Sequence record: LC494302.1
Source of the DNA: Escherichia phage SP27
Strand: one strand, 5' to 3'
DNA length: 64,000 bases
Shown here: piece by piece, positions 31,375 through 59,507 of the stretch
How the letters are laid out: each line of letters opens with the position of its first letter
Position numbering within the stretch: the first letter of the stretch is position 1
Notes under the pieces: model-generated
The model's database searches: none
What the model saw: the letters and a program-made list of their open reading frames with translations, nothing else
What the model was told of the DNA's origin: nothing
Translations under genes and position numbers: made by a program

Positions 31375-31617
31375 ATGAAAGTACTGACAGAACTAGAAAT
31401 GTATCATAGATTTAATAAGTACTATCATTTACTTAAGCCTATACAGAGGATTAAATGTCCATTTGAAGAGAAACAGGTTTTAATCTATGAGCACAAGTTC
31501 TTTGTATCATTAGGTACAGATCAACAAGAGTACTATTTGACGTTGTACTTGATTACATTAATAGATTTAATTCACTATAAAACAAAACAAGCTAATAAAG
31601 AGAAATATGAAAACTAA
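31375..31617 (+). CDS. Fam-B protein (last of contiguous array)
   Basis: ATG 31375 after TAAT junction (track start 31342 is GTG); MKVLTELEMY; LGTDQQEYYLTLYLITLIDLI. Confidence 0.8.
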   Translation: MKVLTELEMYHRFNKYYHLLKPIQRIKCPFEEKQVLIYEHKFFVSLGTDQQEYYLTLYLITLIDLIHYKTKQANKEKYEN

Positions 31618-31951
31618 TATACAACTCAAGGTATATAAATCATTTGAACATACATATATCAAAAGTAGTCTATGTAGAGATGTAATGGATTACAAGGGTA
31701 AGCCATTCACAATTACCTATGATTCTTATGTTAGTGATTTATATATATCATTTGTTAATTACGAAAATAAAATATACAAGCACGTTGATATTAAAGATTT
31801 AAGTACTTTATCTGAAGAGGAATACTTTCAGGAATCATTAGTATGGGATTTAGAGTTTCCTATGCCATTAGTACATAAGATGATAGTACTAATGAAAGAA
31901 TCTAAACAGGAGCCTAATGGTGATTATGAAGAACACACAGTTGAGTATTAA
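31607..31951 (+). CDS. Fam-C protein
   Basis: 114 aa; core LSEEEYFQESLVWD. Confidence 0.85.
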   Translation: MKTNIQLKVYKSFEHTYIKSSLCRDVMDYKGKPFTITYDSYVSDLYISFVNYENKIYKHVDIKDLSTLSEEEYFQESLVWDLEFPMPLVHKMIVLMKESKQEPNGDYEEHTVEY

Positions 31952-32321
31952 AAGTACTGATAATATTAAGAGTTATACAAGCTCAAGTACTGTGACAATC
32001 GAAGTGAATTCTCTTAATGCTGGTAATACAGTAGATAAGTTCTTTATTGCTCAAGGGTACAGGAAAGATATTCATCAATATTGTTCAGTATATGGGGAGT
32101 ACAATAGTACTGAAGATATAATTTATTGGTCAACACATCAAGATTATCTAACTAAAATTGGCGTTCCAGATGTTAGTACTTTATCTGAAGAAGAATACTT
32201 TCAGTACAGCTTAGTACATGATTTACATATACCTTTAGGGTTAATCAAGGGTATGCAGGAAGAGGTTCATAAGCTTAAATCCATGAGTAAAGGTACTTTC
32301 ATTAGAACAGTGCAATACTAG
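31917..32321 (+). CDS. Fam-C protein
   Basis: 134 aa (alternative ATG 31926); core LSEEEYFQYSLVHD. Confidence 0.8.
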   Translation: MVIMKNTQLSIKSTDNIKSYTSSSTVTIEVNSLNAGNTVDKFFIAQGYRKDIHQYCSVYGEYNSTEDIIYWSTHQDYLTKIGVPDVSTLSEEEYFQYSLVHDLHIPLGLIKGMQEEVHKLKSMSKGTFIRTVQY

Positions 32322-32322
32322 C

Positions 32323-32351
32323 TTGACAGTACTTTTCTTTAGTGCTATAGT
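32323..32351 (+). promoter_or_regulatory. sigma70-like promoter inside Fam-C array
   Basis: TTGACA 32323-32328 /17/ TATAGT 32346-32351. Confidence 0.7.
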
Positions 32352-32380
32352 ACCTGTACGTTAATCATAGGGTAGAAATT

Positions 32381-32626
32381 ATGTTAAATTTTTTAAATTT
32401 TCTTATCGTCTTGTGTATTGTTCTTGGGATTGCACCATTTGTATTGTATTTCATGGATTCAGATGAAATGCAGAAGATGAATTGCACAAGGACAGGACAG
32501 AGTAGAGTAGAGACGATTCTTATGCCTGTTACGGTTATTGTTAACAACATGCCCATTACGAACATGGTCCCTACCCTAACGACAACGTACCAGTACTCTT
32601 GTACAGACGGAGAGAGGTGGAGATGA
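32381..32626 (+). CDS. small membrane protein (N-terminal TM helix), not Fam-C
   Basis: 81 aa; MLNFLNFLIVLCIVLGIAPFVLYF hydrophobic N-terminus; own promoter. Confidence 0.75.
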   Translation: MLNFLNFLIVLCIVLGIAPFVLYFMDSDEMQKMNCTRTGQSRVETILMPVTVIVNNMPITNMVPTLTTTYQYSCTDGERWR

Positions 32627-32943
32627 AATTTAATATAGCAAAAACATCGAGTATATGTATTTTTGGTTATGCAGAAGAGTTAGGTGATATTGACATTCTT
32701 TTGTACAAAAAGGATGGTGTTATGCATTTCAAGTACCAGGATGAAGAGGCAGACAATTATCTTTTACCTAATTTAGTACAAATGCAGGAAGAGGAATTAT
32801 TCCAGTACAGCTTAATATACGACATTGTTATTTGCACGATGCCAGTACTAATTAGTATTCAAAAAGTGATGCTCGATATGTATGATAAGCTAATACAAGG
32901 TACATCAGGGAGAATCATTGAAATCGATATACAAGACAATTAA
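32623..32943 (+). CDS. Fam-C protein
   Basis: ATG 32623 in ATGA overlap, SD GAGGTGGAG (track start 32599 rejected); core QEEELFQYSLIYD. Confidence 0.8.
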   Translation: MKFNIAKTSSICIFGYAEELGDIDILLYKKDGVMHFKYQDEEADNYLLPNLVQMQEEELFQYSLIYDIVICTMPVLISIQKVMLDMYDKLIQGTSGRIIEIDIQDN

Positions 32944-33879: not shown

Positions 33880-34082
33880 TGCAAAAGATTAATACGATAA
33901 CATTAAATGCATTACAGGATTCATTATTAGATAGTATTAAGATGTATTACAATATACATTTGAAGGGTGGTATTGATAATTACGATTATTATTTGAGTTT
34001 AATTACATTTGAGCACCTTTCAGTACAGGACAGGATTTTACATCCTACAAATCCTAGGTATCCATCGATAGGTAAATTATGA
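33879..34082 (+). CDS. hypothetical protein (array-embedded)
   Basis: 67 aa; N-terminal NALQDSLLDSI loosely core-like. Confidence 0.65.
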   Translation: MQKINTITLNALQDSLLDSIKMYYNIHLKGGIDNYDYYLSLITFEHLSVQDRILHPTNPRYPSIGKL

Positions 34083-34627
34083 ATGAGATAAAGTTATTAG
34101 CACACAAGATAAGTACAATAATGCTTATCCTCAATAACAACCATCCTATATCGCATATAGATGGAATCCTGAGTCAGAGGACAGGTGGTAGTTTATATTT
34201 GTCCATAAACGCGGATATCGCAAGGAAATACATTGATATTGATGTTGAAATCGAATATGATACAACGGGGATTGTTGATGTAGGTGCATTAATCAGTTCA
34301 AATCCAGTATCAGCATCCCCATTGACCAAAGATGTTAGTACAGGATTCGAAGGATATTTGTGGTACAATACCAATGATGATTATTTTATATATCAGCATT
34401 CCAATACAAATTATGATGAAGACAAATTTCAGTTCATAGACCCTTATGATGAAGCTGAAGTATTTCAAAAATCATTAATCACAAAACCGCATGAGATGAT
34501 GTATCTAATGTTATTCAGTACAATGCATTTGAATCCATTAATTAAAGGTTTAAAATTTTATATTCAATTAAATTTAGTCCATGTAGTTTATGATTTATTA
34601 ATGCAAGGATATAGTTATGAAGTATAA
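34079..34627 (+). CDS. Fam-C protein
   Basis: 182 aa; ATGA overlap; core DEAEVFQKSLITK. Confidence 0.85.
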   Translation: MNEIKLLAHKISTIMLILNNNHPISHIDGILSQRTGGSLYLSINADIARKYIDIDVEIEYDTTGIVDVGALISSNPVSASPLTKDVSTGFEGYLWYNTNDDYFIYQHSNTNYDEDKFQFIDPYDEAEVFQKSLITKPHEMMYLMLFSTMHLNPLIKGLKFYIQLNLVHVVYDLLMQGYSYEV

Positions 34628-34928
34628 AATGATGTATACCCCAGATATGATTTATGTTGAATTAGAAGATGATGACGATGGGTGGAATTTGATTTATTCA
34701 AGAAGTTCAGGTTGGTACATGGCACATTTAAATGATTCGATAGTTACAGATTATTTTGTAGATTTCAATACATTATCCGATGAAGAATTGTTCCAACAGC
34801 AATTAGTGATTGACACGGGTGGTTATGATGTCTTATTATTAAAAAAGATACAGAAAGCTGTTATTGATTTTAAGCCCATGATATGGCAAAGGAAATATTA
34901 TGACCTCGAAGTACCATACCAGCAATGA
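34617..34928 (+). CDS. Fam-C protein
   Basis: 103 aa; core SDEELFQQQLVID. Confidence 0.85.
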   Translation: MKYKMMYTPDMIYVELEDDDDGWNLIYSRSSGWYMAHLNDSIVTDYFVDFNTLSDEELFQQQLVIDTGGYDVLLLKKIQKAVIDFKPMIWQRKYYDLEVPYQQ

Positions 34929-35466
34929 AATTCAGTACACCTACGCTAATGCAATCCTTATGGGACAAAAGTTAGCTTGTATTGTTGCAGCCTTATATAA
35001 TGCCCAGAAATATCACAAGCGTCATTTCCACAAATGTATTGGTATTATTCCATCGAAGTACAATACATATATTGCGTGCACGAGTCATTTTGATAAACGA
35101 TTCAATACACCAGATATACCAAATGCCCGTAGTGTTATTGGTCTTTTGGATTTCGCACCTGGTGCTGTTATTGGAAAGAATGATTTAGAGTACGCATGGT
35201 ATAATAAAAATGCCCCGTTAGTAATGGTAACATATGATAAAGAAACGAACAACGCAATAGAGTACAATACATATAAATCAGAGGAAGAATTTTTTCAAGG
35301 TTCAATGCTTGTACCAGTGCGTTTGTTATTTTATAATGTCATAATGAGTACAGTACACAATAGTCCATTACACAAGAATCACAAAATTAATTTCAATTTT
35401 TGTGCTTATGCGATTGATGGTGTGTATGAGTGTTTAATGGAGGTATTGAGTTATGAAGCTGAATAA
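34900..35466 (+). CDS. Fam-C protein
   Basis: 188 aa; core SEEEFFQGSMLVP. Confidence 0.85.
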   Translation: MTSKYHTSNEIQYTYANAILMGQKLACIVAALYNAQKYHKRHFHKCIGIIPSKYNTYIACTSHFDKRFNTPDIPNARSVIGLLDFAPGAVIGKNDLEYAWYNKNAPLVMVTYDKETNNAIEYNTYKSEEEFFQGSMLVPVRLLFYNVIMSTVHNSPLHKNHKINFNFCAYAIDGVYECLMEVLSYEAE

Positions 35467-35794
35467 TACATTTGATATTAATAAGTTAAGAGAATGGTTT
35501 TATAGTATTGAAATTGAAGCCATCCCGTATCATAGATATGAACAATATAATTTAACCAGTATTGATATCAGTGAGTTGTACGCGTATTATCAAAGTGCAT
35601 TAGAGATGCATAAGTTATTTTTGAGTACAGATTTTGTTCTAAATTACAATTTTGAGGAATTTAAAAATTATAATTTAGTACAGAAATATGTAGTAGCAAA
35701 GTACATGTACCTTCAAGGAATTACAAGTATAGTGGAATTCAATACAGTCCTTGCTTTAGTTGAGGTAATTTTATGCAGTACATGTATGATTTAG
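35453..35794 (+). CDS. hypothetical protein (array-embedded; degenerate core?)
   Basis: 113 aa; SELYAYYQSALEMH weakly core-like. Confidence 0.7.
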   Translation: MKLNNTFDINKLREWFYSIEIEAIPYHRYEQYNLTSIDISELYAYYQSALEMHKLFLSTDFVLNYNFEEFKNYNLVQKYVVAKYMYLQGITSIVEFNTVLALVEVILCSTCMI

Positions 35795-36279
35795 AGTTCA
35801 GCTTAGATGCTGCATTTAAATATGTTCACAAGATAGAAACAATATACAGTACATTATGTGCAATAAAATCAGTAACAGAAGAGCTTGATGTTGGTGAAAA
35901 ATATCAGGTATGGAATAATACATTTTTAAATAAAGAACGTTGCTCTACGGGGTTTAATATTTTAACATTTAATCCCAGCAATTGTTACCCAGAGAAGCAT
36001 GAACGTTATCCGAATGACGACATGTGGTTTGAGTACAAAGAAGATTGTGATATGTCGTTCATTGAAGTTCCTGATGATTTTAATGCACAAGATTTAACAG
36101 ACGAGTGGTGGTTCCAGCAGAATTTAGTCCACGATGATATTGATTTATTTTTTTATGTAGTATTTAAAATGCTTTATCACAACAATATAGTACAAGATAG
36201 TGTATTTTTTTCATGTCTATATATTGATGATTTGTACAATGAAATTCAAATCAACATGCCCAGAACGCCTGTATCGTAA
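35773..36279 (+). CDS. Fam-C protein
   Basis: 168 aa; core TDEWWFQQNLVHD. Confidence 0.85.
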   Translation: MQYMYDLEFSLDAAFKYVHKIETIYSTLCAIKSVTEELDVGEKYQVWNNTFLNKERCSTGFNILTFNPSNCYPEKHERYPNDDMWFEYKEDCDMSFIEVPDDFNAQDLTDEWWFQQNLVHDDIDLFFYVVFKMLYHNNIVQDSVFFSCLYIDDLYNEIQINMPRTPVS

Positions 36280-36295
36280 GATATGGGCTTTTTTC
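36258..36295 (+). terminator. weak terminator-like hairpin
   Basis: GCCCA 36258-36262 / TGGGC 36284-36288 (21-nt loop) then TTTTTT. Confidence 0.4.
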
Positions 36296-36304: not shown

Positions 36305-36333
36305 TTGACATAGAAGACCAAAGCTGTTATCAT
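36305..36333 (+). promoter_or_regulatory. sigma70-like promoter inside Fam-C array
   Basis: TTGACA 36305-36310 /17/ TATCAT 36328-36333. Confidence 0.65.
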
Positions 36334-36361
36334 GTGTATTCATTTTAAAGGAGAATATATA

Positions 36362-36874
36362 GTGAGTTTCATAATCCCAAGTACATACGAAGATGCATCA
36401 AGTGCAGTTCATAAGATTCATTATATTTTTAATTTAATTATTAGATCTGCAAAAATTAAAATGTATGCACCTCTTGTGACAAATAATCGAAATGAAGAAA
36501 TTTTTATTAGCACAGACAAAATTATTTTTCCATATTTCAATGAAGATAGATTGTGGTTCATACATTTAGCTGCATTACAAAAATATAAGATGTCAATTCG
36601 TAATAATTTGGTTATACCGTTATATCATCCCGATATTGGAGAGGATGAGTATTTTCAGTACAGCACAGTACACCGCCATGAAGATATCTTTGCTGCTATG
36701 CTTATTGCTAAATTGAACACCGTTGATTTGGAGCAGTACAAATACAATAATAAATCATGTAAGATCATAATCCCTGCATTCATAGCTCTTTATGATTATG
36801 TGGTGCATAACAAAAAAGATGATACATATGCTTTCAATGAAGAGTATTTGGATTTTTTTAAGGATAACATATGA
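36362..36874 (+). CDS. Fam-C protein (GTG start)
   Basis: GTG 36362, 8 nt after SD AAAGGAG; track ATG 36332 lies in the -10 element; core GEDEYFQYSTVHR. Confidence 0.75.
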   Translation: MSFIIPSTYEDASSAVHKIHYIFNLIIRSAKIKMYAPLVTNNRNEEIFISTDKIIFPYFNEDRLWFIHLAALQKYKMSIRNNLVIPLYHPDIGEDEYFQYSTVHRHEDIFAAMLIAKLNTVDLEQYKYNNKSCKIIIPAFIALYDYVVHNKKDDTYAFNEEYLDFFKDNI

Positions 36875-37410
36875 GCAGTACAACAGTATCAAAAGTACAG
36901 AAAGCAATGTCATTCAATGAAATTGGTACATTTAAAGATAAGATCATTGATTGCCTTGAATACATGATTTGTAGTAATATCGAAAGTATCGAGATATTTA
37001 ACAAGACAAATCGCTCTTACCATATGATGTACATTGCAAACAATAATGGTATCATTCCATTTATTTCGGATAGTACAATATGGTACGCATGTGATACGAA
37101 AAAAACCACAATAGGTTTACATTTATTTGAGACACATTATGATCTAATTATTCCTGAGCATTGTATGCAAGAAGAAGAATATTTTCAAATGCAATGTATA
37201 CATTCACCATTAGTGTTGTTTAGTTTATATATTATACCTTATATCACCAAATGTGTTCATGAGAATAAAGCTCCGTGGAATCATGAATTTGTATCGTTGA
37301 AGTTATTGTATAATGTATTAGTAGAATATTATGATTACAGGCACAATGGTACAATCAGTGATGTATGGGATTTTGAATCGCTAAGGGTGAAAACATACAC
37401 AGGTGAATGA
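36871..37410 (+). CDS. Fam-C protein
   Basis: 179 aa; ATGA overlap; core QEEEYFQMQCIHS. Confidence 0.85.
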   Translation: MSSTTVSKVQKAMSFNEIGTFKDKIIDCLEYMICSNIESIEIFNKTNRSYHMMYIANNNGIIPFISDSTIWYACDTKKTTIGLHLFETHYDLIIPEHCMQEEEYFQMQCIHSPLVLFSLYIIPYITKCVHENKAPWNHEFVSLKLLYNVLVEYYDYRHNGTISDVWDFESLRVKTYTGE

Positions 37411-37411
37411 T

Positions 37412-38026
37412 ATGACCAGAATTAAAATGTATGATTTGATGCAGTACAGTAAAATTGCCATTCCAGTGCTTAATAAAGTGCTGGATGCATTCATTGCCAA
37501 ATACCCTGAGAATTCAGTGTTATGTATTCCATTTAGTGTTCCAGATAAAGATGATATATTCCAAGTGAATGTCAGTACACGTGGTATTACATTACAGCAG
37601 AAATACATGGATACGGAATATTATGGAATAAAGTTGGATTCAGTACAGGGTTCAAAATCAGCCTATGATTTTTTTGTTCCTAATAATATAGAGTCATGGG
37701 AAACAAACATTTCAAAGAAAGATGAAAATGATGTTCCTATTAGTGGTGTGTTCAACAATAAAGTTTTTTATTATTACGAAACCGACAAATTCCCTGAAGA
37801 GTTATATTACAATTCAGAAATGAATGAAGATGTAGATGCATTCATGTTTCAATTATCTTTAGTACATGATATCATTGATGTTAAAGAGTTAAGAGCAGAA
37901 ATCAATTTAGCTAAAGAGTTATCGGACATGCTGCCACCGTTTAGTATGCTTTTTTGTGAAGGTGGTTATTTTTCAAAAGAAGTGTTTGAACATTTCGTAG
38001 ATGTTGTAAAAGGGTTGGATATATAG
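37412..38026 (+). CDS. Fam-C protein
   Basis: ATG 37412 (track start 37403 is GTG); MTRIKMYDL; core VDAFMFQLSLVHD. Confidence 0.8.
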   Translation: MTRIKMYDLMQYSKIAIPVLNKVLDAFIAKYPENSVLCIPFSVPDKDDIFQVNVSTRGITLQQKYMDTEYYGIKLDSVQGSKSAYDFFVPNNIESWETNISKKDENDVPISGVFNNKVFYYYETDKFPEELYYNSEMNEDVDAFMFQLSLVHDIIDVKELRAEINLAKELSDMLPPFSMLFCEGGYFSKEVFEHFVDVVKGLDI

Positions 38027-39090: not shown

Positions 39091-39100
39091 GGAAAGTACA

Positions 39101-52165: not shown

Positions 52166-52186
52166 AGACCCTTATGGGTCTTTTTG
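52166..52186 (+). terminator. intrinsic terminator
   Basis: AGACCC-TTAT-GGGTCT 52166-52181 then TTTTT. Confidence 0.8.
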
Positions 52187-52196: not shown

Positions 52197-52225
52197 TTTA
52201 CAGTAGCATTCAGATGTGTTATAAT
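52197..52225 (+). promoter_or_regulatory. extended -10 promoter inside Fam-C array
   Basis: TTTACA 52197-52202 /17/ TGtTATAAT (TATAAT 52220-52225). Confidence 0.65.
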
Positions 52226-52819: not shown

Positions 52820-53400
52820 ACCATATCAGAACTAAAATTTTGAGACTCATGCATGACATTGCAGAACTTTCAGAGATTCATGACATTACAGAAATTGTTG
52901 AATTTGATGATTATCGACTGAAAATTGAAAACAAATCCAAACATCGTTTTGGATCAGTTCAGTTGGATGTATATAAAACTTATGAATTTTCTAAAAAAAT
53001 TAAAAGTTCATGGGATACGATTACTATGTACATTCGCACATCCAGAAATCGTGAACGTATTGGTTCTATTTCTTCTAATATGGTATTTGCGAATGCATTA
53101 CATGAAAAAATGAATAAAATTGTAGAATCTGATTTCAGTGAAGATGATGGTTTTATTGGGTTGGATGTTCCACCAGAATTAGACCAAAGTGAAGATATTC
53201 GAGATGCATTCATTTTCCAGAAATCATTGTTGGACAATTACAAAGAATTCGAGTACTTAATGCTTTGTTACGATACTGCAAAAGTTCTTGATTGTGGTGA
53301 ACTAGTTATGTACAATGATTTTATCAATTACAAGACTGATGTTCTGAATACACTACTTCAAAATATAGAATCGGTTAAGGAAAAATATGAACGCTTATAG
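52816..53400 (+). CDS. Fam-C protein
   Basis: 194 aa; ATGA overlap; core IRDAFIFQKSLLDN. Confidence 0.85.
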   Translation: MNHIRTKILRLMHDIAELSEIHDITEIVEFDDYRLKIENKSKHRFGSVQLDVYKTYEFSKKIKSSWDTITMYIRTSRNRERIGSISSNMVFANALHEKMNKIVESDFSEDDGFIGLDVPPELDQSEDIRDAFIFQKSLLDNYKEFEYLMLCYDTAKVLDCGELVMYNDFINYKTDVLNTLLQNIESVKEKYERL

Positions 53401-53965
53401 TTATATGACAGAACGCCATCAGTTATTATATGATATCAGTACAAAAATGTTATCAATTGTTAGTAGTGCAAAAGAAATTGAAAAACAATACCTCATCCGT
53501 GATGTAGCAATTTCATCTAAATGTTGGTCCAATGAATATTACGATCACGGTATTCTTACTATTTCTGGGGCTAGAAATATTTGTATTGTAAAAAATAAAA
53601 ATAAAAGTAATGAAGAGTGTGAGATTATAACCGATATACAAATTAAGGATGATGGAAGTTTTTCACACCACCCATTCCATATTAGTACTATTGGTGTTTT
53701 ATATAATATTAAAGTACTATTCGGTGATGAAGAGTATGTGTTAAAATCTATCAATCCAGAATCAAGTACAGTTGAAGAAGAACTGTTCCAGATGAGCACT
53801 GTTATACCTGAAGAGGTTCTTAGTACTGTTATTTTTTGTAGTTTAATTTATCATGAATACAAAAAGTACCAGTTCGATTTCCACATGTTAGGAACATACA
53901 TCTTCAATAATTTGAATGTAGATCGTTTAACAGCATTAAATGCAGCAATGGATAAGGTGCTATAA
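53387..53965 (+). CDS. Fam-C protein
   Basis: 192 aa; core TVEEELFQMSTVIP. Confidence 0.85.
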   Translation: MNAYSYMTERHQLLYDISTKMLSIVSSAKEIEKQYLIRDVAISSKCWSNEYYDHGILTISGARNICIVKNKNKSNEECEIITDIQIKDDGSFSHHPFHISTIGVLYNIKVLFGDEEYVLKSINPESSTVEEELFQMSTVIPEEVLSTVIFCSLIYHEYKKYQFDFHMLGTYIFNNLNVDRLTALNAAMDKVL

Positions 53966-54393
53966 TGACAAGAGATGATTGTTTGTACATATGGGATATA
54001 ATTGAAACTACACTTTCAAATCCAGAAAATTATAAAACAAAAAAAAGACAACGACACAAAATATGGATAGATTTGTTCGTTGAGGGCATACACGCAGTGA
54101 CTATTTGGGATTCACCGAGGGCATCATCATCTACTCTGTTGGACAATGAATGCATTGATTGCATTAATTCCACTTTTCATCTCTACGGTACTACAATTTT
54201 TGGTACATTTCTGGATATTGAAAGTAAAGATGATATTGATTCACTTGCGTTACAATACCAAGTACTATATAATACTAAATTAATTTACGATTTAGTACTA
54301 GCTTCTTATGTGTATAAATTAATGATGAAATATAATCATATTTCTGTTTCAGTTTATACTAAGGATATTCTTTCATTAAGAGACAAAACATGA
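53965..54393 (+). CDS. Fam-C-like protein (degenerate core)
   Basis: 142 aa; TAATG junction; IDSLALQYQVLYN. Confidence 0.75.
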   Translation: MTRDDCLYIWDIIETTLSNPENYKTKKRQRHKIWIDLFVEGIHAVTIWDSPRASSSTLLDNECIDCINSTFHLYGTTIFGTFLDIESKDDIDSLALQYQVLYNTKLIYDLVLASYVYKLMMKYNHISVSVYTKDILSLRDKT

Positions 54394-54899
54394 GTTTATT
54401 AAATGCACGCGAATTGGTTGAGATGTATGAGATTTTGTCTTCATATAAAAATTCTCCAAAAGATGTAATTCTAAACAAAAAGTTCCATGTCAGTGTTGAA
54501 CATATAACAAATATAGATATGATTTCTTTGGTGGAAAGTAATAAGTCAGGTCTGGAGCGTGATATCATGCGTTTGATTTATATTCCTAAACCATCATATA
54601 CTAATGATAGTACTATTAGCAATGAGACATTCATGTATAGTCCTGGTACGGATTCTACTATAGTATCGCTGTCCAATAAATCAATGGATACTTTCCAATT
54701 CATCTATACCAGTACTGATAACATTGAAGAAATTGAATTTCAAAACAATACATTAAGTCCATGTAGTAGTGTTATAACCTTTATGTCATATCTATGGTCA
54801 ACTAAAACAAGTGCTGTTGTATATAGTTCAAATTATACACAAGATAGTATTGTTGAATCATATAAAGTTCTAAAGGAATACTATGAAAATAACAAATGA
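54390..54899 (+). CDS. Fam-C protein
   Basis: 169 aa; ATGA overlap; core NIEEIEFQNNTLSP. Confidence 0.8.
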   Translation: MSLLNARELVEMYEILSSYKNSPKDVILNKKFHVSVEHITNIDMISLVESNKSGLERDIMRLIYIPKPSYTNDSTISNETFMYSPGTDSTIVSLSNKSMDTFQFIYTSTDNIEEIEFQNNTLSPCSSVITFMSYLWSTKTSAVVYSSNYTQDSIVESYKVLKEYYENNK

Positions 54900-55464
54900 T
54901 TTTATTAAAAGTGTAGTACACCCTATGCTTAGTATTATGAAAAAAATACAGAATCTACCGGAAGATAACGATTACAAGTTTAATCGTTTTGATTCAGATG
55001 TGTTTTGTATTGAAATTGAAATTAATAACAATCGTAATTTACATTTAAAATTCAAAGAATCTTCGAGTCCGTACTACAACTTTGATATGAATTTTAAAAT
55101 AGATACTGACATTGAAGAAAACGTAATATCAAATCATACTAGCAAAAATGGTTTTATGCATAGAACTACTATGTACAATAATAAAAATAGTATTATATCT
55201 AAATGGAATCAACAATTCACTAAAATTTGTGAAATTGAATATAATGATTTTGGTAAAGAACATTACTTTCAGTTAAGTACAATTCATGAACTTCCACCAT
55301 ATGATTATGTTAAAACATGGTTTGATATTCATAATATAATTGATGATGCAATCAAACTTCCATTTGGTGTGTCAATATCATATACTGCTCCTAAAACATT
55401 TGTTTTTACTGAAGATATGATTATGAAAAAGATATGGGCAATCATCCCACTTATGATGGATTAA
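54883..55464 (+). CDS. Fam-C protein
   Basis: 193 aa; core GKEHYFQLSTIHE. Confidence 0.85.
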   Translation: MKITNDFIKSVVHPMLSIMKKIQNLPEDNDYKFNRFDSDVFCIEIEINNNRNLHLKFKESSSPYYNFDMNFKIDTDIEENVISNHTSKNGFMHRTTMYNNKNSIISKWNQQFTKICEIEYNDFGKEHYFQLSTIHELPPYDYVKTWFDIHNIIDDAIKLPFGVSISYTAPKTFVFTEDMIMKKIWAIIPLMMD

Positions 55465-55470: not shown

Positions 55471-55507
55471 ACCAGGGGTTGACTCTGGTTTTTTTGTATG
55501 ATACATT
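55471..55507 (+). promoter_or_regulatory. terminator-like hairpin with embedded promoter
   Basis: ACCAG 55471-55475 / CTGGT 55485-55489 + T-run; TTGACT 55479-55484 /17/ TGaTACATT (55502-55507). Confidence 0.5.
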
Positions 55508-55525: not shown

Positions 55526-56077
55526 ATGAACTACAATCATGATCTTTTTACATTATGTGCATCCAAATGTGTTGAAGGATGGGCAGATAAAATCAATATC
55601 ATAATTCATCGATATCTCGTCTTTAGTTCCCGTGCACGAAGTGAGGGGGCTATGGATTTCAAATATACACTATCTATTGATGGTGTAACTATCCATGCAG
55701 ACGAAGAACGTCTGAACATTAATTTGTATGATTCCTGTGTATTTGCTATTCACCAAAAGATGGGGAAAGGATGGGGTTGTAATAACATTAACTCCAAAGC
55801 TATCTTTTGGGTTGGTCACCATCAGACAGTACTTGATCCTTCAATCAAATCTAATCTTTTATCCGATAATATGGTTTATGATTTATTGTACTCCGAAGAA
55901 CAACATTTTCAGTTAAGTACATTGCATGTTCTGGCACAGTACGAGGATTGTTACAAAACATTAGAACTATGCCATTCCCTTGAACTTAAAGATAAATTAA
56001 TACAAGTTTACCCTTCATTCTTTCATGAAGAAGTCCAAAGTACACTAGATCATATTTTATATGGATACGATAAATGA
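55526..56077 (+). CDS. Fam-C protein
   Basis: 183 aa; SD AAGGAGAA; core YSEEQHFQLSTLHV. Confidence 0.85.
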   Translation: MNYNHDLFTLCASKCVEGWADKINIIIHRYLVFSSRARSEGAMDFKYTLSIDGVTIHADEERLNINLYDSCVFAIHQKMGKGWGCNNINSKAIFWVGHHQTVLDPSIKSNLLSDNMVYDLLYSEEQHFQLSTLHVLAQYEDCYKTLELCHSLELKDKLIQVYPSFFHEEVQSTLDHILYGYDK

Positions 56078-56676
56078 GAAAAAGTTATCAAGAAGCTATT
56101 GACTTAATTCGTGAAGTTATCAAGGTGGCTCCTGCTGCTATTGAGTTCAAGAAGTCCATATACAAGAAGTATGGGTCAATGTCGAGTATGTGCTTTCAAA
56201 AGAAACGTAGAGCATTCACTACCCAGTACTGGAATGATTCTATCATCCTGAGCAATGAGACTCAGCGTATTTTAACACTAGAATCTGAACCTAATGAGTA
56301 CGGGGAAGGAAACATTTGTGTACCTGATTATGATGAAATTAACTTCAACTGCGGTGATTTTGAAACAACATTATTACTTCATGAGGGTTATCCAGAAGGT
56401 GATGTATTAGCTGAATACAATCCAAAAACTAAAATTCTCAAAAGAGGAATTCAGTTCACTATTAATAACAAAGATGATGTTGAAGCAGCACTGATGCAAC
56501 TGAGTACAAGTGAACCTATCACTATTAGTGTAGAAGAGTTATGGGGAATTATTTCAGTACTCAATGAGTGCTATAAAGTAAAATCATTGCGTAATCACAC
56601 CCTTATATTGCATACTAATATGGCAAATATAAAATGTAAGCACATTCAAGAAATGGTGGTTCCAGATGGACTTTAA
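56074..56676 (+). CDS. Fam-C-like protein (degenerate core)
   Basis: 200 aa; ATGA overlap; VEAALMQLSTSEP. Confidence 0.8.
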   Translation: MRKSYQEAIDLIREVIKVAPAAIEFKKSIYKKYGSMSSMCFQKKRRAFTTQYWNDSIILSNETQRILTLESEPNEYGEGNICVPDYDEINFNCGDFETTLLLHEGYPEGDVLAEYNPKTKILKRGIQFTINNKDDVEAALMQLSTSEPITISVEELWGIISVLNECYKVKSLRNHTLILHTNMANIKCKHIQEMVVPDGL

Positions 56677-57250
56677 AGAAATTGAAAGTAAATTAAAGTA
56701 CTTCAAAGATATCAAACTTCTTTGGGAAAAGTATAAAATTGATTACAATTTCAGTGATGATGAGACAATAAAATACATTGAGATTAATATCAAAATCAAG
56801 TTCAAGAATAATAATTATGGTGAAGTAAGCTTAAATCATGCTGGTATATCACTCAAGGACTATGATGGTTCAACACTCGCATATTTCGACTTCACACCAG
56901 AACCAGGTGAAACACTACTTAGTGAGATAAATTCCTATGACATGGAAGTGTTCGGCGGGAATCCGTTACTGTTCCGACTTTCTGAAGAGTGGAGTGAAGA
57001 ATACTACACTTACAAAGATGGTGTAGTACTTGACATTCATGGAGAAGTTGTGAATGACTTGGAAGAACGTTTGTTCCAAGAATTGTGTGTTTCAAATACT
57101 TCATATGCATACAATCATATCCTTGACATGTTTGATTTATATAGTAAAATAGATGCTGAAATGAATGCACATGGTATTCATTACCTTACAATTAACGACT
57201 ATGCTCAACTCGAAACCGCTGTGAAAGCATTGACTAAAGTACTGAAATAG
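56666..57250 (+). CDS. Fam-C protein
   Basis: 194 aa; core LEERLFQELCVSN. Confidence 0.85.
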   Translation: MDFKEIESKLKYFKDIKLLWEKYKIDYNFSDDETIKYIEINIKIKFKNNNYGEVSLNHAGISLKDYDGSTLAYFDFTPEPGETLLSEINSYDMEVFGGNPLLFRLSEEWSEEYYTYKDGVVLDIHGEVVNDLEERLFQELCVSNTSYAYNHILDMFDLYSKIDAEMNAHGIHYLTINDYAQLETAVKALTKVLK

Positions 57251-57259
57251 GAATGAAAT

Positions 57260-57673
57260 ATGAAACTGTATCATGCGAGTACTGTAAAAATTGATAACTT
57301 TTATATCCCGTATGGTGGCCTTCATATGGGAGGTAAACACAGTGCTTTAGAAGCTGCCTTACGCAAGCTGAGAAGCCCACTAAACGTTGTTGACGCATGT
57401 ACAGTATACTTGCATACCTTAGAAGTTGATGTTGATAACGTGCTTCTGTGTGAAGATTTAGGCAGTGATGATGAGTGGCGTTCACTTATTGAGAATTGCA
57501 CGGCTCAAGGTTATGATGCTGTTCAGTACAAAAATGATTACGAGCCAGACAATGTTCCTAGCTTTATGATTTGGGATACATCTAAAATTCGTATTATTGA
57601 AGTTGATGCGATGCATATGGATGAAGCTGAAATGATCATCGAAGATTTCCTTGATGAATATGAAGGTGTATAA
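57260..57673 (+). CDS. hypothetical protein, not Fam-C (array insert)
   Basis: 137 aa; MKLYHASTVKIDNFYIPYGGLHMGGKHSALEAA, acidic C-terminus; no core motif. Confidence 0.8.
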   Translation: MKLYHASTVKIDNFYIPYGGLHMGGKHSALEAALRKLRSPLNVVDACTVYLHTLEVDVDNVLLCEDLGSDDEWRSLIENCTAQGYDAVQYKNDYEPDNVPSFMIWDTSKIRIIEVDAMHMDEAEMIIEDFLDEYEGV

Positions 57674-58191
57674 TGATTGAACCTATGACAGTACTAGCAC
57701 GTACTAAATTATTATTGAAGATTGCTGAAATATTCACTGTTCTTATGTACAATAATCAAGACATAACTGACTTAGGTATTAAGCAACCGTGGCAAATTAC
57801 AAAGTTCACGGCGTTCCACCGATTGTCATATAATGGTGAAACTGTTCTTGATTTTAATCCAAAAGCCACGTTCGTGAATTACGCTGCATTATATGGATGT
57901 AATGGTGGATTAACAAATGACTTCACTGAAATAAAAGTACAATCAGAATCATTAGAATTTAATGACTTAATATATCCAGAATTTAAGTTAACAGAAGAAA
58001 CACTATTTCAGTACTCACTAATTATAAAAGATGTATATGATCTTGAGTACTACAAAGAGTTAGTAGATATTTTTAAGAATACTCGACTTTCAAAAGATAT
58101 TGTGATATTCTGGTATGTTGAGTATGTTACAGAGGAATTGCTAGAAGAATTTCTTCTAAATATGACAGCTATAAAGGAGAAGTTATGTTAG
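57673..58191 (+). CDS. Fam-C protein
   Basis: 172 aa; TAATG junction; core LTEETLFQYSLIIK. Confidence 0.85.
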   Translation: MIEPMTVLARTKLLLKIAEIFTVLMYNNQDITDLGIKQPWQITKFTAFHRLSYNGETVLDFNPKATFVNYAALYGCNGGLTNDFTEIKVQSESLEFNDLIYPEFKLTEETLFQYSLIIKDVYDLEYYKELVDIFKNTRLSKDIVIFWYVEYVTEELLEEFLLNMTAIKEKLC

Positions 58192-58658
58192 ATATTTTAG
58201 GAAACATCGACACTGCAAATTATTTTATTCAAGATGCATTGTTTAATACAGTACAACAAGGTTTAGAAGTTCACCACAATGTTTATCAGGGTGATGGATA
58301 TTTTGTTGATATTATCGAGACACGTAAAAATACATTTAATGTTAACATTACGACGCTTGGAAGACAGAACATTGCACGAATTTTAGTAAGTAAAGATGAA
58401 ATAGTACTGAGATACAGTGCTAAGTTTATGTTGACTTATAAGAAAAAAACTGATATGTTCAGTACTAATTTATTTGATGAGCCATTTGACCTTGAAGATA
58501 TTGAAGCTACTTTCTTTACTCAAAGTACTATGGTAAAATACACTGATGTTCAATTTTCTGCTGATGTAATGTCAGAAACATTACAAATGATCAAGGTATT
58601 ATTTTATGCATTTGAGCAATTTAGAGAAGAAAGAAACAAGGTTAACAACCACAGATGA
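58185..58658 (+). CDS. Fam-C-like protein (degenerate core)
   Basis: 157 aa; IEATFFTQSTMVK. Confidence 0.8.
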   Translation: MLDILGNIDTANYFIQDALFNTVQQGLEVHHNVYQGDGYFVDIIETRKNTFNVNITTLGRQNIARILVSKDEIVLRYSAKFMLTYKKKTDMFSTNLFDEPFDLEDIEATFFTQSTMVKYTDVQFSADVMSETLQMIKVLFYAFEQFREERNKVNNHR

Positions 58659-59019
58659 ACTAATAGAGGCGATCACTAAGGAGTCAAAATACCATAAAGG
58701 GATTCGTCTATACTTTATAGATACTGGTTCGATGGAAGGTACATACATTTATGGTTCACAATCGTTGTCTTATGATGCAATGCCAAATAAACATGTTAAA
58801 ATCTTTTTAGGTTCAAGTAATAAAACTTTCTTGACAATTAATGATAAAAACGTTATTATGAATTCGTTGGGTCATGATAAGGTGGAAATTGATCTAAACA
58901 CGCTGGAGGATATTGATTTTTTTCAATACGAGTGTTTAGGTGTTGACTTACATGGCATTAGTAGCGATATGATAAAATCATTAATCAAATATTTCGAAGG
59001 TGTTCATAAATGTATCTAA
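58606..59019 (+). CDS. Fam-C protein
   Basis: 137 aa (53-nt overlap, start uncertain); core LEDIDFFQYECLGV. Confidence 0.7.
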   Translation: MHLSNLEKKETRLTTTDELIEAITKESKYHKGIRLYFIDTGSMEGTYIYGSQSLSYDAMPNKHVKIFLGSSNKTFLTINDKNVIMNSLGHDKVEIDLNTLEDIDFFQYECLGVDLHGISSDMIKSLIKYFEGVHKCI

Positions 59020-59507
59020 CTAAATCAATGAAAAATTCATTTGATAAAATTAAGAGTTGTCTTGATGGAGAAAATATTACAAGTGTTACACAAACTGCTG
59101 ACCAAATTCAAAGCAGTTCAAGTGATTGCACTGTTATTTTTGGTTTACATAGTCTGCGTTTATCAATAGTAAATAATATTGACAACACTGCTATTGTAAT
59201 CACACCATGCAATATTCAAAATGAGAATGGTGTATATCTTCATCACATGGGAACAGTATTTCACATTTTCAATTCAAACGAAAACATTGTTAAGGAATAC
59301 AATACTCTTAATATTGATTCAGGTGAATTATTTCAAATGAGTACTTTGTACTCATGTAATTTTACAGATACTTCATGTATTTTGCCATTTTTCTTGGAAA
59401 TTATTAAGAAAATGGAAAATTTAAAACGTGAATACAATAAAGAAATGGTTCCTGAAGCTATATTAAATATTACTAATGCTATAGAGAAGTATAATGCAGT
59501 GACTTAA
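59010..59507 (+). CDS. Fam-C protein (last of contiguous array)
   Basis: 165 aa; core DSGELFQMSTLYS. Confidence 0.85.
   Translation: MYLTKSMKNSFDKIKSCLDGENITSVTQTADQIQSSSSDCTVIFGLHSLRLSIVNNIDNTAIVITPCNIQNENGVYLHHMGTVFHIFNSNENIVKEYNTLNIDSGELFQMSTLYSCNFTDTSCILPFFLEIIKKMENLKREYNKEMVPEAILNITNAIEKYNAVT

What the first reader, a model, noticed from the sequence alone, without database searches (positions are those of the whole stretch)
31607..59507. Head-to-tail array of about 50 diverged paralogs over about 28 kb, sharing one short core motif (Fam-C)
Nearly every + strand ORF of 100-210 aa from 31607 to 59507 carries the same core about two thirds of the way along. The core is an acidic run followed by [YLFM]-F-Q-x-[SAN]-[LT]-[VIL]-[YHF]-[DPN]. 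Examples are LSEEEYFQESLVWD (31607), SDESLFQYSTMYD (39101), DSEEYYFQQSTVYD (41533), LTDEVLFQLSTICD (51647) and DSGELFQMSTLYS (59010). Outside the core most copies are barely alignable by eye. Genes abut or overlap (ATGA, TAATG, up to about 50 nt), and I can see only five sigma70-like promoters interrupting the run (32323, 36305, 48316, 52197, 55479). Outlying copies sit at 2182-2841 and 62211-63059. I recognise no known domain. One paralog family filling almost half of a 64-kb viral window is exceptional. Tandem immunity-gene islands and poxvirus gene accordions are the nearest analogies, which suggests a diversified arsenal for counter-defence, host takeover or exclusion. The function is unknown.
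Basis: partly seen in the sequence, partly recalled or inferred. Interest (0 to 1): 0.9.

Follow-up and report, generated by a model that had tools for sequence, protein, structure and literature searches.

The report
Jumbo-phage array of ~45 diverged paralogs
A 28-kb stretch of a PBECO4/121Q-type jumbo coliphage holds about 45 head-to-tail, highly diverged copies of one small acidic protein that has no known domain, no solved-structure relative and no known function. It is probably an early-expressed toolkit for manipulating the host, and it is real and uncharacterised, although the literature has mentioned such an array in one sentence.

The parts
31607..59507 (+). Fam-C array: 64 + strand ORFs, of which 54 are at least 100 aa; 37 are firm and about 9 probable family members
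31607..31951 (+). Fam-C gene, 114 aa
   Evidence: HMM E=5e-16, leave-one-out 3.9e-10; core LSEEEYFQESLVWD
31917..32321 (+). Fam-C gene, 134 aa
   Evidence: HMM 1.4e-18, LOO 9.7e-13; LSEEEYFQYSLVHD
32599..32943 (+). Fam-C gene, 114 aa
   Evidence: HMM 3.2e-13, LOO 1e-9; MQEEELFQYSLIYD
34079..34627 (+). Fam-C gene, 182 aa
   Evidence: HMM 3.9e-24, LOO 1.1e-8; YDEAEVFQKSLITK
34617..34928 (+). Fam-C gene, 103 aa
   Evidence: HMM 3.2e-11, LOO 4.4e-8; LSDEELFQQQLVID
34900..35466 (+). Fam-C gene, 188 aa
   Evidence: HMM 3.2e-23, LOO 1.6e-7; KSEEEFFQGSMLVP
35773..36279 (+). Fam-C gene, 168 aa
   Evidence: HMM 6.1e-25, LOO 3.9e-8; LTDEWWFQQNLVHD
36332..36874 (+). Fam-C gene, 180 aa
   Evidence: HMM 1.2e-13, LOO 2.1e-6; IGEDEYFQYSTVHR
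36871..37410 (+). Fam-C gene, 179 aa
   Evidence: HMM 6.9e-20, LOO 9.2e-9; MQEEEYFQMQCIHS
37403..38026 (+). probable Fam-C gene, 207 aa
   Evidence: core PSSM p<0.0005, hhalign P=4e-4 on the motif columns; DVDAFMFQLSLVHD
38231..38749 (+). Fam-C gene, 172 aa
   Evidence: HMM 1.3e-19, LOO 5.1e-8; DTEESYFQQSLIYA
38746..39090 (+). probable Fam-C gene, 114 aa
   Evidence: core PSSM p=0.006; EDEAARFQYETAYD
39029..39652 (+). Fam-C gene, 207 aa
   Evidence: HMM 5.6e-21, LOO 1.3e-6; LSDESLFQYSTMYD
40326..40811 (+). Fam-C gene, 161 aa
   Evidence: HMM 7.7e-18, LOO 7.4e-8; LDDAALFQEALVFD
40808..41167 (+). Fam-C gene, 119 aa
   Evidence: HMM 8.4e-17, LOO 5.9e-11; MDTAELFQESLVFD
41164..41523 (+). Fam-C gene, 119 aa
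   Evidence: HMM 5.6e-15, LOO 1e-9; LDDGELFQAALVFD
41533..42024 (+). Fam-C gene, 163 aa
   Evidence: HMM 1.7e-32, LOO 3.1e-24; DSEEYYFQQSTVYD
42026..42496 (+). Fam-C gene, 156 aa
   Evidence: HMM 3e-25, LOO 1.5e-15; GSEEFYFQQNTIYE
42493..42936 (+). Fam-C gene, 147 aa
   Evidence: HMM 3e-29, LOO 9.6e-16; GTEEYYFQQSLIFN
42936..43427 (+). Fam-C gene, 163 aa; the copy whose structure was modelled
   Evidence: HMM 8.6e-34, LOO 8e-27; AF2 pLDDT 89.8, pTM 0.84; DSEEYYFQNSTLYN
43402..43845 (+). Fam-C gene, 147 aa
   Evidence: HMM 2.1e-31, LOO 1.4e-20; DSEEYYFQNSTLYD
43842..44156 (+). Fam-C gene, 104 aa
   Evidence: HMM 4.4e-13, LOO 1.1e-4; DHETFLFQESLVWD
44156..44629 (+). Fam-C gene, 157 aa (no ortholog in G17)
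   Evidence: HMM 8.1e-26, LOO 1.2e-13; NSEDAYFQYSTIYP
44595..45041 (+). Fam-C gene, 148 aa
   Evidence: HMM 5.9e-26, LOO 8.3e-14; STEEGYFQGSTVYN
45038..45574 (+). probable Fam-C gene, 178 aa
   Evidence: core PSSM p=0.018, hhalign P=0.004 on the motif columns; SFEEQCFQLSCTDP
45929..46489 (+). Fam-C gene, 186 aa
   Evidence: HMM 3.5e-21, LOO 4.3e-8; NTEENIFQNSVLHD
47088..47450 (+). Fam-C gene, 120 aa (no ortholog in G17)
   Evidence: HMM 6.2e-15, LOO 4.1e-10; MQEDELFQESLVWD
47440..47775 (+). Fam-C gene, 111 aa
   Evidence: HMM 1.7e-15, LOO 2e-9; LDEGELFQESLVFN
47735..48319 (+). Fam-C gene, 194 aa
   Evidence: HMM 1.5e-25, LOO 6.4e-11; LNQEYYFQLSLLFP
48379..48855 (+). Fam-C gene, 158 aa
   Evidence: HMM 6e-26, LOO 5.2e-13; NTEEEFFQYSTVYP
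48852..49337 (+). Fam-C gene, 161 aa
   Evidence: HMM 6.6e-26, LOO 1.3e-14; MSEEMYFQGSCIHD
49327..49689 (+). Fam-C gene, 120 aa
   Evidence: HMM 6.3e-18, LOO 6.4e-11; LSEEELFQQSTIST
49673..50086 (+). Fam-C gene, 137 aa
   Evidence: HMM 4.1e-18, LOO 1.7e-8; MTPDELFQYSLVFP
50074..50568 (+). Fam-C gene, 164 aa
   Evidence: HMM 4.7e-20, LOO 1.8e-12; LSEESYFQNSLIYT
51091..51654 (+). Fam-C gene, 187 aa
   Evidence: HMM 1e-25, LOO 1.1e-7; DLESAMFQLSLIHN
51599..52165 (+). Fam-C gene, 188 aa
   Evidence: HMM 2e-19, LOO 1.4e-10; LTDEVLFQLSTICD
52816..53400 (+). probable Fam-C gene, 194 aa
   Evidence: core PSSM p=0.018; IRDAFIFQKSLLDN
53387..53965 (+). Fam-C gene, 192 aa
   Evidence: HMM 4e-19, LOO 1.2e-8; TVEEELFQMSTVIP
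54390..54899 (+). probable Fam-C gene, 169 aa
   Evidence: HMM E=0.0039, core PSSM p=0.0003; NIEEIEFQNNTLSP
54883..55464 (+). Fam-C gene, 193 aa
   Evidence: HMM 1.7e-16, LOO 6e-4; FGKEHYFQLSTIHE
55526..56077 (+). probable Fam-C gene, 183 aa
   Evidence: wider-pool HMM E=3.9e-5, but not recovered in leave-one-out; YSEEQHFQLSTLHV
56074..56676 (+). probable, degenerate Fam-C gene, 200 aa
   Evidence: core PSSM p=0.045, hhalign P=0.0055 on the motif columns; DVEAALMQLSTSEP
56666..57250 (+). probable Fam-C gene, 194 aa
   Evidence: core PSSM p=0.0003, hhalign P=0.0014; DLEERLFQELCVSN
57673..58191 (+). Fam-C gene, 172 aa
   Evidence: HMM 8.1e-14, LOO 2.6e-7; LTEETLFQYSLIIK
58185..58658 (+). possible degenerate Fam-C gene, 157 aa
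   Evidence: core PSSM p=0.069 at relative position 0.70; LEDIEATFFTQSTMV; ortholog in Klebsiella phage fENko-Kae01
59010..59507 (+). Fam-C gene, 165 aa, last of the array
   Evidence: HMM 2.7e-13, LOO 1.4e-4; IDSGELFQMSTLYS; reciprocal best hit to ENKO_077 of fENko-Kae01, which that record marks as seen by LC-MS/MS
2182..2841 (+). outlying Fam-C copy, 219 aa, with Q replaced by M in the core
   Evidence: core PSSM p<0.0005, hhalign P=4.3e-6; KELSEEDLFMYSTVIDN
32323..32351 (+). sigma70-like promoter with extended -10 (TTGACA-17-TGcTATAGT) in a 59-nt gap
   Evidence: 11 of 12, TG present; gap sequence
36267..36288 (+). intrinsic-terminator-like hairpin followed by a T run
36305..36333 (+). sigma70-like promoter with extended -10 (TTGACA-17-TGtTATCAT)
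   Evidence: 11 of 12, TG present
48316..48345 (+). consensus sigma70 promoter with extended -10 (TTGACA-18-TGaTATAAT)
   Evidence: 12 of 12, TG present; same position in fEgEco12 and A4
52164..52183 (+). terminator-like hairpin
52197..52225 (+). sigma70-like promoter with extended -10 (TTTACA-17-TGtTATAAT)
   Evidence: 11 of 12, TG present
55471..55489 (+). terminator-like hairpin whose loop holds the next promoter's -35 box
55479..55507 (+). sigma70-like promoter (TTGACT-17-TACATT, preceded by TG)
   Evidence: read from the gap sequence; 9 of 12

Best explanation
Fam-C is a true multigene family specific to Rak2-like jumbo phages. This window holds about 45 copies.

THE PROTEINS. They are 100-210 aa long, acidic, soluble and probably non-enzymatic. 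They share one alpha/beta fold: an N-terminal helix, a roughly 7-stranded sheet and a C-terminal helical half. The conserved core [S/T]-E-E-x-[YFL]-F-Q-x-S-[TL]-[VIL]-[YHF]-[DNP] maps to a short helix, a turn and the start of the next helix. I infer that it is the structural keystone of the fold (an N-capping S/T, acidic first helical turn and buried aromatic residues) and not an active site. Diversity is concentrated in the sheet half and in the loops.

EXPRESSION (INFERRED). The genes lie on the + strand, about 6 kb inside the about 21-kb left direct terminal repeat, after the Fam-B array. They are probably transcribed by host sigma70 RNA polymerase as about six long, translationally coupled operons. 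That would place them in the early programme.

FUNCTION (INFERRED, NOT SHOWN). Each paralog binds and neutralises or redirects a different host target, such as a defence or housekeeping protein. Together the array would be a standing host-takeover or counter-defence repertoire.

EVOLUTION (SHOWN). The array grew by old tandem duplications. It now evolves by rapid sequence divergence and by recombinational replacement of single cassettes, while copy number stays stable.
For: HOMOLOGY..

CODING UNDER CONSTRAINT. Pooled dN/dS against phage G17 is 0.30 for members.

PROTEIN PROPERTIES. Median pI is 4.75 against 6.8 for the other ORFs, and GRAVY is negative. Only F113 and Q114 are invariant, and no conserved H, C or K was seen.

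EARLY-TYPE CONTEXT. Near-consensus sigma70/extended -10 promoters sit in most of the few gaps wide enough to hold one, three of them just after terminators. Equivalent promoters occupy the gaps of the arrays in fEgEco12, A4, fENko-Kae01 and two metagenomic contigs. 73 of 95 junctions overlap. In fEgEco12, whose ends were confirmed experimentally, the repeat ends at 20,993, Fam-B starts at 21,091 and Fam-C runs from 27,270 to 56,262. In fENko-Kae01 the array starts right after the repeat. The CBB paper calls the homologous region suspected early genes.

NOT VIRION PROTEINS. The virion proteome table of phAPEC6 lists no gp4xx, and two known members there are gp426c and gp442c.

FAST EVOLUTION. 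Median amino-acid identity between the window and A4 is 38% for Fam-C, 68% for Fam-B, 75% for other genes and 96% for repeat genes. In the comparison with G17, single cassettes have dS of 0.5-0.8 next to neighbours with dS<0.1.

TANDEM ORIGIN. The best paralog is the immediate neighbour in 32% of cases against 5% expected.

BREADTH AND STABILITY. HMM hits number 38-41 in four Asteriusvirus genomes, 31 in Klebsiella phage RCIP0023 and 21 in fENko-Kae01. RaK2 and K64-1 proteins fall in the family. The exhaustive profile search found 145 clusters at 50% identity.
Against: There are no expression or functional data for any member.

Promoter-like hits as a whole are not enriched over shuffles (99 against 114 expected, and 116 against 127). 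The promoter calls therefore rest on their placement, their TG extension and their recurrence in relatives.

No member resembles any known anti-defence or host-shutoff protein.

The members' dN/dS (0.30) is higher than that of neighbouring genes (0.19). Part of the divergence could reflect relaxed constraint and not conflict.

Whether the left end of the genome enters the cell first is unknown.

I could not inspect model coordinates, so whether the core is buried is inferred only from secondary structure and residue types.

One ortholog (ENKO_077) was detected in a >300-kDa lysate fraction. That could mean it belongs to a large complex or to the particle.
Confidence: 0.4

Rival explanations
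1. Genome filler, or 'capsid ratchet'. The copies are leftovers of tandem duplications that filled an enlarged capsid. They are retained mainly because the packaged genome length has to be kept, and the individual copies have little function.
For: Hua et al. [quoted passage not shown] Neighbouring copies are each other's closest relatives more often than chance predicts. Members' dN/dS (0.30) is higher than that of neighbours (0.19).
Against: The copies are intact ORFs under purifying selection. The core has been kept for long enough that paralogs are only 20-40% identical. Copy number is stable, many copies have orthologs across species, and the last four in-array ORFs keep orthologs and gene order in a Klebsiella phage. 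Dedicated promoters are conserved. Filler DNA would be expected to decay into pseudogenes.
Confidence: 0.1
2. Competition between phages. The paralogs act against co-infecting or superinfecting phages or satellites, or they act as specificity or immunity factors among related jumbo phages. They do not act on host functions.
For: The array is hypervariable between congeners, with cassette replacement. The context is early-type. The proteins are acidic and look like small binders.
Against: There are no partner toxin or nuclease genes and no alternating gene pairs in the array. Nothing separates this reading from the host-target reading. No membrane proteins typical of exclusion systems are present, and GRAVY is negative.
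Confidence: 0.15
3. Internal housekeeping. The family supplies chaperones, scaffolds or regulators for the phage's own processes, for example assembly of its many fibre and 'hair' proteins or organisation of replication. One paralog would serve one client.
For: ENKO_077, the reciprocal best hit of 59010-59507, was detected by LC-MS/MS in a >300-kDa retentate of a phage lysate. These phages carry unusually many fibre genes. The last four in-array ORFs are conserved across genera.
Against: The family is absent from the CsCl-type virion proteome table of phAPEC6. It has sigma70 promoters and lies next to the repeat, away from the structural modules. It diverges much faster than would be expected of partners of conserved structural proteins.
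Confidence: 0.12
4. The core is a common docking, tagging or cleavage site. The invariant acidic-x-[YF]-F-Q-x-S segment would be recognised by one shared partner, such as a host or phage protease, a chaperone or a polymerase. The family would then be a set of adaptors or substrates plugged into one hub.
For: The core is the only segment conserved in all copies and in all lineages examined. In some copies it matches E-x-x-Y-x-Q-[G/S], the recognition consensus of potyviral NIa/TEV-type proteases (that consensus is my own knowledge), for example EEGYFQG in 44595-45041. A relative encodes a ClpP-like protease further downstream.
Against: The segment is modelled with very high confidence as a helix-turn-helix inside the domain. 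Its residue pattern (N-capping S/T, acidic first turn, aromatic residues) is explained more simply as a folding core. No Gln-specific protease was identified.
Confidence: 0.1

Closest known systems
Terminal multigene families of large eukaryotic DNA viruses (ASFV MGF110/300/360/505; poxvirus ankyrin/PRANC and other terminal host-range families). Cited from my own knowledge.
   Same: Tens of highly diverged paralogs lie in head-to-tail arrays near a genome end. Individual copies are kept for long periods. The regions are hypervariable between related strains. The products are non-structural proteins expressed early.
   Different: This is a different virus realm and there is no sequence or fold relation. 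In those viruses a role in host range or immune evasion has been shown experimentally, and here nothing has been tested. Copy number is stable within Asteriusvirus, whereas ASFV MGF copy number varies between isolates.
Host-takeover or pre-early gene blocks of phages with long terminal repeats (SPO1 gp37-60, T5 pre-early genes, the Tre genes of Staphylococcus phage K). Cited from my own knowledge.
   Same: Blocks of small genes of unknown fold lie at or next to a long direct terminal repeat. They read inward from the end and are driven by strong host-type promoters.
   Different: Those blocks lie inside the repeat and consist of unrelated genes. Fam-C lies outside the repeat and is a single paralog family of about 45 copies. 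In this phage the repeat itself carries a different set of small genes, each with its own promoter.
[quoted passage not shown] 2017, PMC5646251); about 35 zinc-ribbon copies in phage G (PMC7824862); 'nearly 10% paralogues' in RaK2 (PMC3622015)
   Same: This is the same phenomenon, and for 121Q very probably this locus or the adjacent Fam-B array.
   Different: The literature gives one sentence each. It offers no family definition, motif, fold, boundaries, distribution or evolutionary analysis, and it reads the arrays only as a route to genome expansion.
Poxvirus gene accordions (for example K3L amplification). Cited from my own knowledge.
   Same: Tandem duplication of a viral gene that faces the host.
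   Different: Accordions are recent, near-identical and variable in copy number. In Fam-C the best paralog pair is 57-58% identical, most pairs are 20-40% identical, and copy number is 38-41 in four genomes.
PHROGs phrog_9317, 12674, 13866, 22855, 34516, 30243, 38467, 19795 and others (all 'unknown function')
   Same: Individual copies match these phage orthologous groups at E of 1e-50 to 1e-141, with weak cross-hits between groups.
   Different: PHROGs splits the family into more than 10 separate groups and gives no annotation. The unity of the family shows only at profile level.

Membership tests
Any Pfam / NCBIfam domain family | Match at or above the curated score cut-off | tested here: not met
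   Ten representatives against Pfam gave nothing better than E 0.03, far below the cut-offs. All 37 members against NCBIfam gave 2 chance-level hits in one member.
Any protein of solved structure | Sequence-profile or fold similarity to a PDB chain | tested here: not met
PHROGs of unknown function (phrog_9317, 12674, 13866 and others) | HMM match to the PHROG profile | tested here: met
   E of 1e-50 to 1e-141 for each of 10 representatives, spread over more than 10 PHROGs, all of unknown function.
Poxvirus-type gene accordion | Near-identical recent tandem copies | tested here: not met
   The best paralog pair is 57-58% identical and most best pairs are 20-40% identical.
Poxvirus-type gene accordion | Copy number varies between close relatives | tested here: not met
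   38, 38, 41 and 38 HMM hits in the window, G17, fEgEco12 and A4. Only single-gene gains or losses were seen.
Terminal-repeat host-takeover module (SPO1 / T5 type) | Genes lie inside the direct terminal repeat | tested here: not met
   In fEgEco12 the repeat is 1-20,993 and Fam-C runs from 27,270 to 56,262. In fENko-Kae01 the array starts about 25 nt after the repeat ends.
Terminal-repeat host-takeover module (SPO1 / T5 type) | Strong host-RNA-polymerase early promoters | tested here: inconclusive
   Near-consensus sigma70/extended -10 promoters sit in most of the few intergenic gaps and recur in relatives. There are no transcript data, and promoter-like hits are not enriched overall.
Terminal-repeat host-takeover module (SPO1 / T5 type) | Products shut off or redirect host macromolecular synthesis | not testable with these tools
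   Requires expression, toxicity and interaction assays.
Polymorphic toxin / immunity gene islands | A toxin domain plus cognate immunity genes in alternating or cassette order | tested here: not met
   No toxin or other domain was found. The array is one family with a few interspersed Fam-B type small ORFs and shows no pairing.
DNA-mimic anti-restriction proteins (Ocr, ArdA type) | Strongly acidic protein | tested here: met
   Median pI is 4.75. Net charge reaches -27, and 78% of members have pI below 5.5.
DNA-mimic anti-restriction proteins (Ocr, ArdA type) | Fold or sequence similarity to a known mimic | tested here: not met
Hub-adaptor families (F-box/PRANC-like logic) | A short conserved motif that binds a common hub, joined to a variable target-binding part | tested here: inconclusive
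   One conserved core plus a variable remainder is observed. The core is modelled inside the fold and no hub is known.
Virion / structural proteins | Detected in purified particles | tested here: not met
   The phAPEC6 virion proteome table has no gp4xx entry. Two known members there are gp426c and gp442c. One ortholog was seen only in a crude >300-kDa fraction of fENko-Kae01.

The most novel reading that the evidence does not exclude
Fam-C is a previously undescribed protein fold used as a modular targeting system. The invariant acidic-FQ-x-S segment would dock each of about 45 different target-binding modules onto one common host or phage machine, such as a protease, a chaperone or RNA polymerase. 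That would make it a bacteriophage counterpart of the F-box/PRANC or BTB adaptor families of eukaryotic viruses. The repertoire would decide which host defence or housekeeping proteins are removed early in infection, and so would shape host range.
Probability: 0.1. Interest if true: 0.85.

Novelty: new member of a known kind. Interest (0 to 1): 0.6.

Why it matters
About 8% of a 350-kb phage genome is spent on one protein family that has no Pfam entry, no solved-structure relative and no assigned function. That amounts to about 45 genes here and 20-40 in each Rak2-like jumbo phage of Escherichia, Klebsiella and Salmonella that was examined.

Between close relatives these genes diverge faster than the other gene classes compared in this part of the genome. 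They also sit where early, host-directed genes usually sit.

Asteriusvirus and RaK2-like phages are being proposed for therapy against E. coli and Klebsiella. A repertoire of this size is therefore an obvious candidate for determinants of host range and counter-defence, and a source of new inhibitors of bacterial proteins.

Defining the family (core motif, HMM, boundaries, operons, orthology) turns about 45 'hypothetical proteins' per genome into one testable unit.

Tried and rejected

RELATED LOCI. The search for related loci with the family alignment failed because no 7-10 column stretch was conserved enough. Single-sequence tblastn reaches only the same genus, or a few relatives.

SECOND STRUCTURE MODEL. 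I modelled a motif-less in-array ORF (52253-52819) with its 4 homologue clusters, to test whether unresolved ORFs share the fold. The result was pLDDT 41 and is unusable.

UNRESOLVED ORFS. Single-sequence and small-profile hhalign give only weak P values (0.001-0.03), though they fall consistently on the motif columns. About 8 ORFs stay unresolved.

OUTLIER 62211-63059. Tested whole and as two halves, it is not supported as a member.

RELATION TO FAM-A AND FAM-B. hhalign finds no relation between Fam-C and either family.

RNA. Rfam finds no RNA family in the window.

LITERATURE. There are no transcriptomic or functional data on these genes. The only mentions are the general remarks found.

REJECTED READINGS. 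Compositional artefact is rejected (1.3 motifs expected by shuffling against 38 seen). Gene accordion is rejected. Structural protein family is rejected.

Full report
WHERE THE WINDOW COMES FROM. The window is 91-98% identical over long stretches to Asteriusvirus jumbo coliphages: BAU.Micro_ELP-22, PBECO4, 121Q, G17, Sharanji and phAPEC6. Window 11-9042 matches fEgEco12 at 348,697-357,974, and window 40000-45962 matches 36,784-42,779. The physical ends of fEgEco12 were confirmed by restriction digests, and its direct terminal repeat (DTR) is 20,993 bp (PMC13070987). The window therefore reads as follows: the right unique end, then one DTR copy (roughly 4.6-25 kb), then the left unique region. 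In fEgEco12 the first gene after the DTR (at 21,091) begins a run of about 70-aa genes that corresponds to the Fam-B array in this window. Fam-C spans 27,270-56,262.

CHECKING THE OBSERVATION. The strict motif occurs 30 times in + strand frames and never on the - strand. From a mechanical gene set of 171 ORFs, all-vs-all phmmer joins 31 ORFs of 31607-53965 into one cluster. HMM iteration brings this to 37, and a wider pool adds 55526-56077. The E-values include self-scoring, so I repeated the test with each member left out: 37 of 38 still score E<1e-3. Of the 54 + ORFs of at least 100 aa in the interval, 38 carry FQx[SANTG][LTIVMA] against 1.28 expected by shuffling, at relative position 0.66±0.06. 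A PSSM of the 20-aa core finds 7-8 more in-array ORFs at p<0.05, all at relative positions 0.55-0.76, against 2 of 50 ORFs outside the array. The other proposed outlier, 62211-63059, is not supported. The tally is 37 firm and about 9 probable members, with about 8 ORFs unresolved. 'About 50' is slightly generous. The firm members cover 18.0 kb and the probable ones 4.3 kb of the 27.9-kb interval.

GENE ORGANISATION. All genes are on the + strand, and 73 of 95 junctions between 25 and 64 kb overlap, most often by 4 nt. Only a handful of gaps exceed 35 nt. The gaps at 32322, 36280, 48320, 52166 and 55465 each hold a near-consensus sigma70 promoter with a TG extension, and three of them sit just downstream of a terminator hairpin. 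Promoter-like hits are not enriched in the region as a whole, so placement is the argument here. The argument is strengthened because the few gaps in the arrays of fEgEco12, A4, Klebsiella phage fENko-Kae01 and two metagenomic contigs hold the same kind of promoter. I infer about six polycistronic, translationally coupled operons read by host RNA polymerase. That is an early-type arrangement, but no transcript data exist.

DISTRIBUTION. An exhaustive profile search of 1.8 billion representatives finds 145 clusters at 50% identity, all 65-210 aa. Every named member comes from an Asteriusvirus, from roughly 350-kb 'E. coli' contigs that are phage genomes, or from RaK2, K64-1 or KP13-7. Arrays of the same build occur in several other phages. 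Klebsiella phage fENko-Kae01 has 21 HMM hits (27 counting motif-bearing ORFs), and its array starts right after the annotated DTR. Klebsiella phage RCIP0023 has 31 HMM hits (35 with motif-bearing ORFs). Salmonella phages Munch, 7t3, SE_PL and PHA46 and coliphage EJP2 also match. Two metagenomic contigs have 21 HMM hits each (26 with motif-bearing ORFs).

EVOLUTION. Against G17, pooled dN/dS is 0.30 for members and 0.19 for other genes. The ORFs are therefore coding and constrained. Single cassettes (43402-45041, 50074, 57673) have dS of 0.5-0.8 beside neighbours below 0.1, and two genes lack a G17 ortholog, which points to recombinational replacement. Copy number is 38-41 in four Asteriusvirus genomes. 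Between the window and phage A4, median identity of reciprocal best hits is 38% for Fam-C, 68% for Fam-B, 75% for other genes and 96% for DTR genes. The last four in-array ORFs keep orthologs and gene order in the Klebsiella phage. The best paralog is the immediate neighbour in 32% of cases against 5% expected, but the closest pair is only 57-58% identical. The family thus grew by old tandem duplication and is now a stable but fast-diverging repertoire. It is not an accordion.

EXPRESSION AND LOCATION OF THE PRODUCTS. The virion proteome table of phAPEC6 has no gp4xx entry, and two known members there are gp426c and gp442c. ENKO_077 of fENko-Kae01 is the reciprocal best hit of 59010-59507. That record marks it as identified by LC-MS/MS, but the sample was only a >300-kDa retentate of lysate. 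At least one member is therefore translated.

INTERPRETATION. What is shown: a homologous, constrained, clade-wide, hypervariable family with a confidently modelled fold that has no match among solved structures, placed about 6 kb inside the DTR after Fam-B, with sigma70-type promoters. What is inferred: early expression, a non-enzymatic binding role, and host targets. I put 0.4 on 'an early repertoire of binders acting on host targets'. The rivals are genome filler (Hua et al. 2017), inter-phage competition, internal chaperones, and a shared docking or cleavage motif. None is excluded, and each has a stated test.

PRIOR KNOWLEDGE. The literature holds one-sentence remarks only. Hua et al. [quoted passage not shown] The RaK2 paper reports 'nearly 10%' paralogues. 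The CBB paper reports 22 paralog ORFs and a suspected early region. The jumbo-phage comparative review (PMC7824862) describes a roughly 35-copy zinc-ribbon expansion in phage G, and my term search of it turned up no mention of this family. The family as defined here (core, fold, extent, distribution, evolutionary mode) appears undescribed in the searchable literature. The kind of thing it is, a terminal multigene family of a large virus, is known.

Noticed in passing
window 5200-24900 (e.g. 24830-24902, 12446-12526, 22134-22200, 10095-10184, 14546-14585, 19892-19944): At least 25 copies of a 70-90 nt intergenic cassette occur, one before almost every small gene. Each has a sigma70-like promoter (TTGCAAGC...TGTATAATG) followed by a hairpin (GAGAGGGGG-loop-CTCCCTC). 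The cassette is 85-89% conserved in Salmonella phages Munch, 7t3 and SE_PL, in Klebsiella phage fENko-Kae01 and in other Asteriusvirus, where the records annotate the direct terminal repeat. This stretch is probably the roughly 21-kb DTR, carrying monocistronic immediate-early genes.
   Followed up: partly
window 25848-31617, plus 32918-33372 and 45549-45939: A second paralog array, Fam-B. It has 27 head-to-tail genes of about 65-96 aa, basic (median pI 8.7), with the core ELkll.fLGTnyQE. It begins right after the DTR, and four copies are interspersed within Fam-C. It is unrelated to Fam-C by hhalign.
   Followed up: partly
window 566-4548 and 1202-2171: Two more small paralog families lie at the right unique end of the genome. 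Fam-A has 10 genes of about 60-80 aa that start MHKEFY. A separate family has 4 members. The lone Fam-C outlier 2182-2841 sits among them.
   Followed up: no
window 55471-55507, 61346-61417, 62160-62210, 63056-63116: A terminator hairpin and the next promoter are fused. The -35 box (55479) or an extended -10 TGnTATAAT lies in the loop or stem of a T-tailed hairpin (e.g. GTGAACAT...TGTGATATAATGTTCAC TTTTTTTT at 61.37 kb). This looks like a recurrent compact terminator-promoter design.
   Followed up: no
window 44595-45041 (core EEGYFQG); L007 17902-21182 (several TEEGYFQ[GAY]S): In some copies the family core coincides with E-x-x-Y-x-Q-[G/S], the recognition consensus of TEV/NIa-type proteases (that consensus is my own knowledge). 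This is probably a coincidence, because the segment is modelled as folded helix-turn-helix. It is relevant to anyone who would purify these proteins with TEV-cleavable tags.
   Followed up: no
window 43402-45041, 50074-50568, 57673-58191 vs G17 (L001): Single cassettes are only 63-73% identical in protein (dS 0.5-0.8) and are embedded in 95-100% identical flanks. 44156-44629 and 47088-47450 have no G17 ortholog. This is a sharp recombination mosaic at the scale of single genes.
   Followed up: partly
window 40235-40325: A 91-nt gap with a G8 run (GCTGGGGGGGGTC) lies upstream of 40326-40811, which starts with TTG. The G17 counterpart ORF is 187 aa against 161 aa here. This may be a homopolymer-linked start or frame difference, or a sequencing error.
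   Followed up: no
window 26046-26444: A 399-nt 'gap' in my mechanical gene set, inside Fam-B, contains ATG-led reading frames on the + strand (e.g. ATGAAAACTATAACACGAACC...). My greedy ORF choice displaced them in favour of - strand ORFs at 26166-26485. There are probably one or two more Fam-B genes here.
   Followed up: no
L004 (fENko-Kae01) 44418-45095; L006 (A4) 31131-32543: In fENko-Kae01 the record annotates a ClpP-like protease subunit downstream of the array. In phage A4 one 470-aa gene inside the array is annotated 'methyl-accepting chemotaxis protein'. Neither annotation was checked.
   Followed up: no
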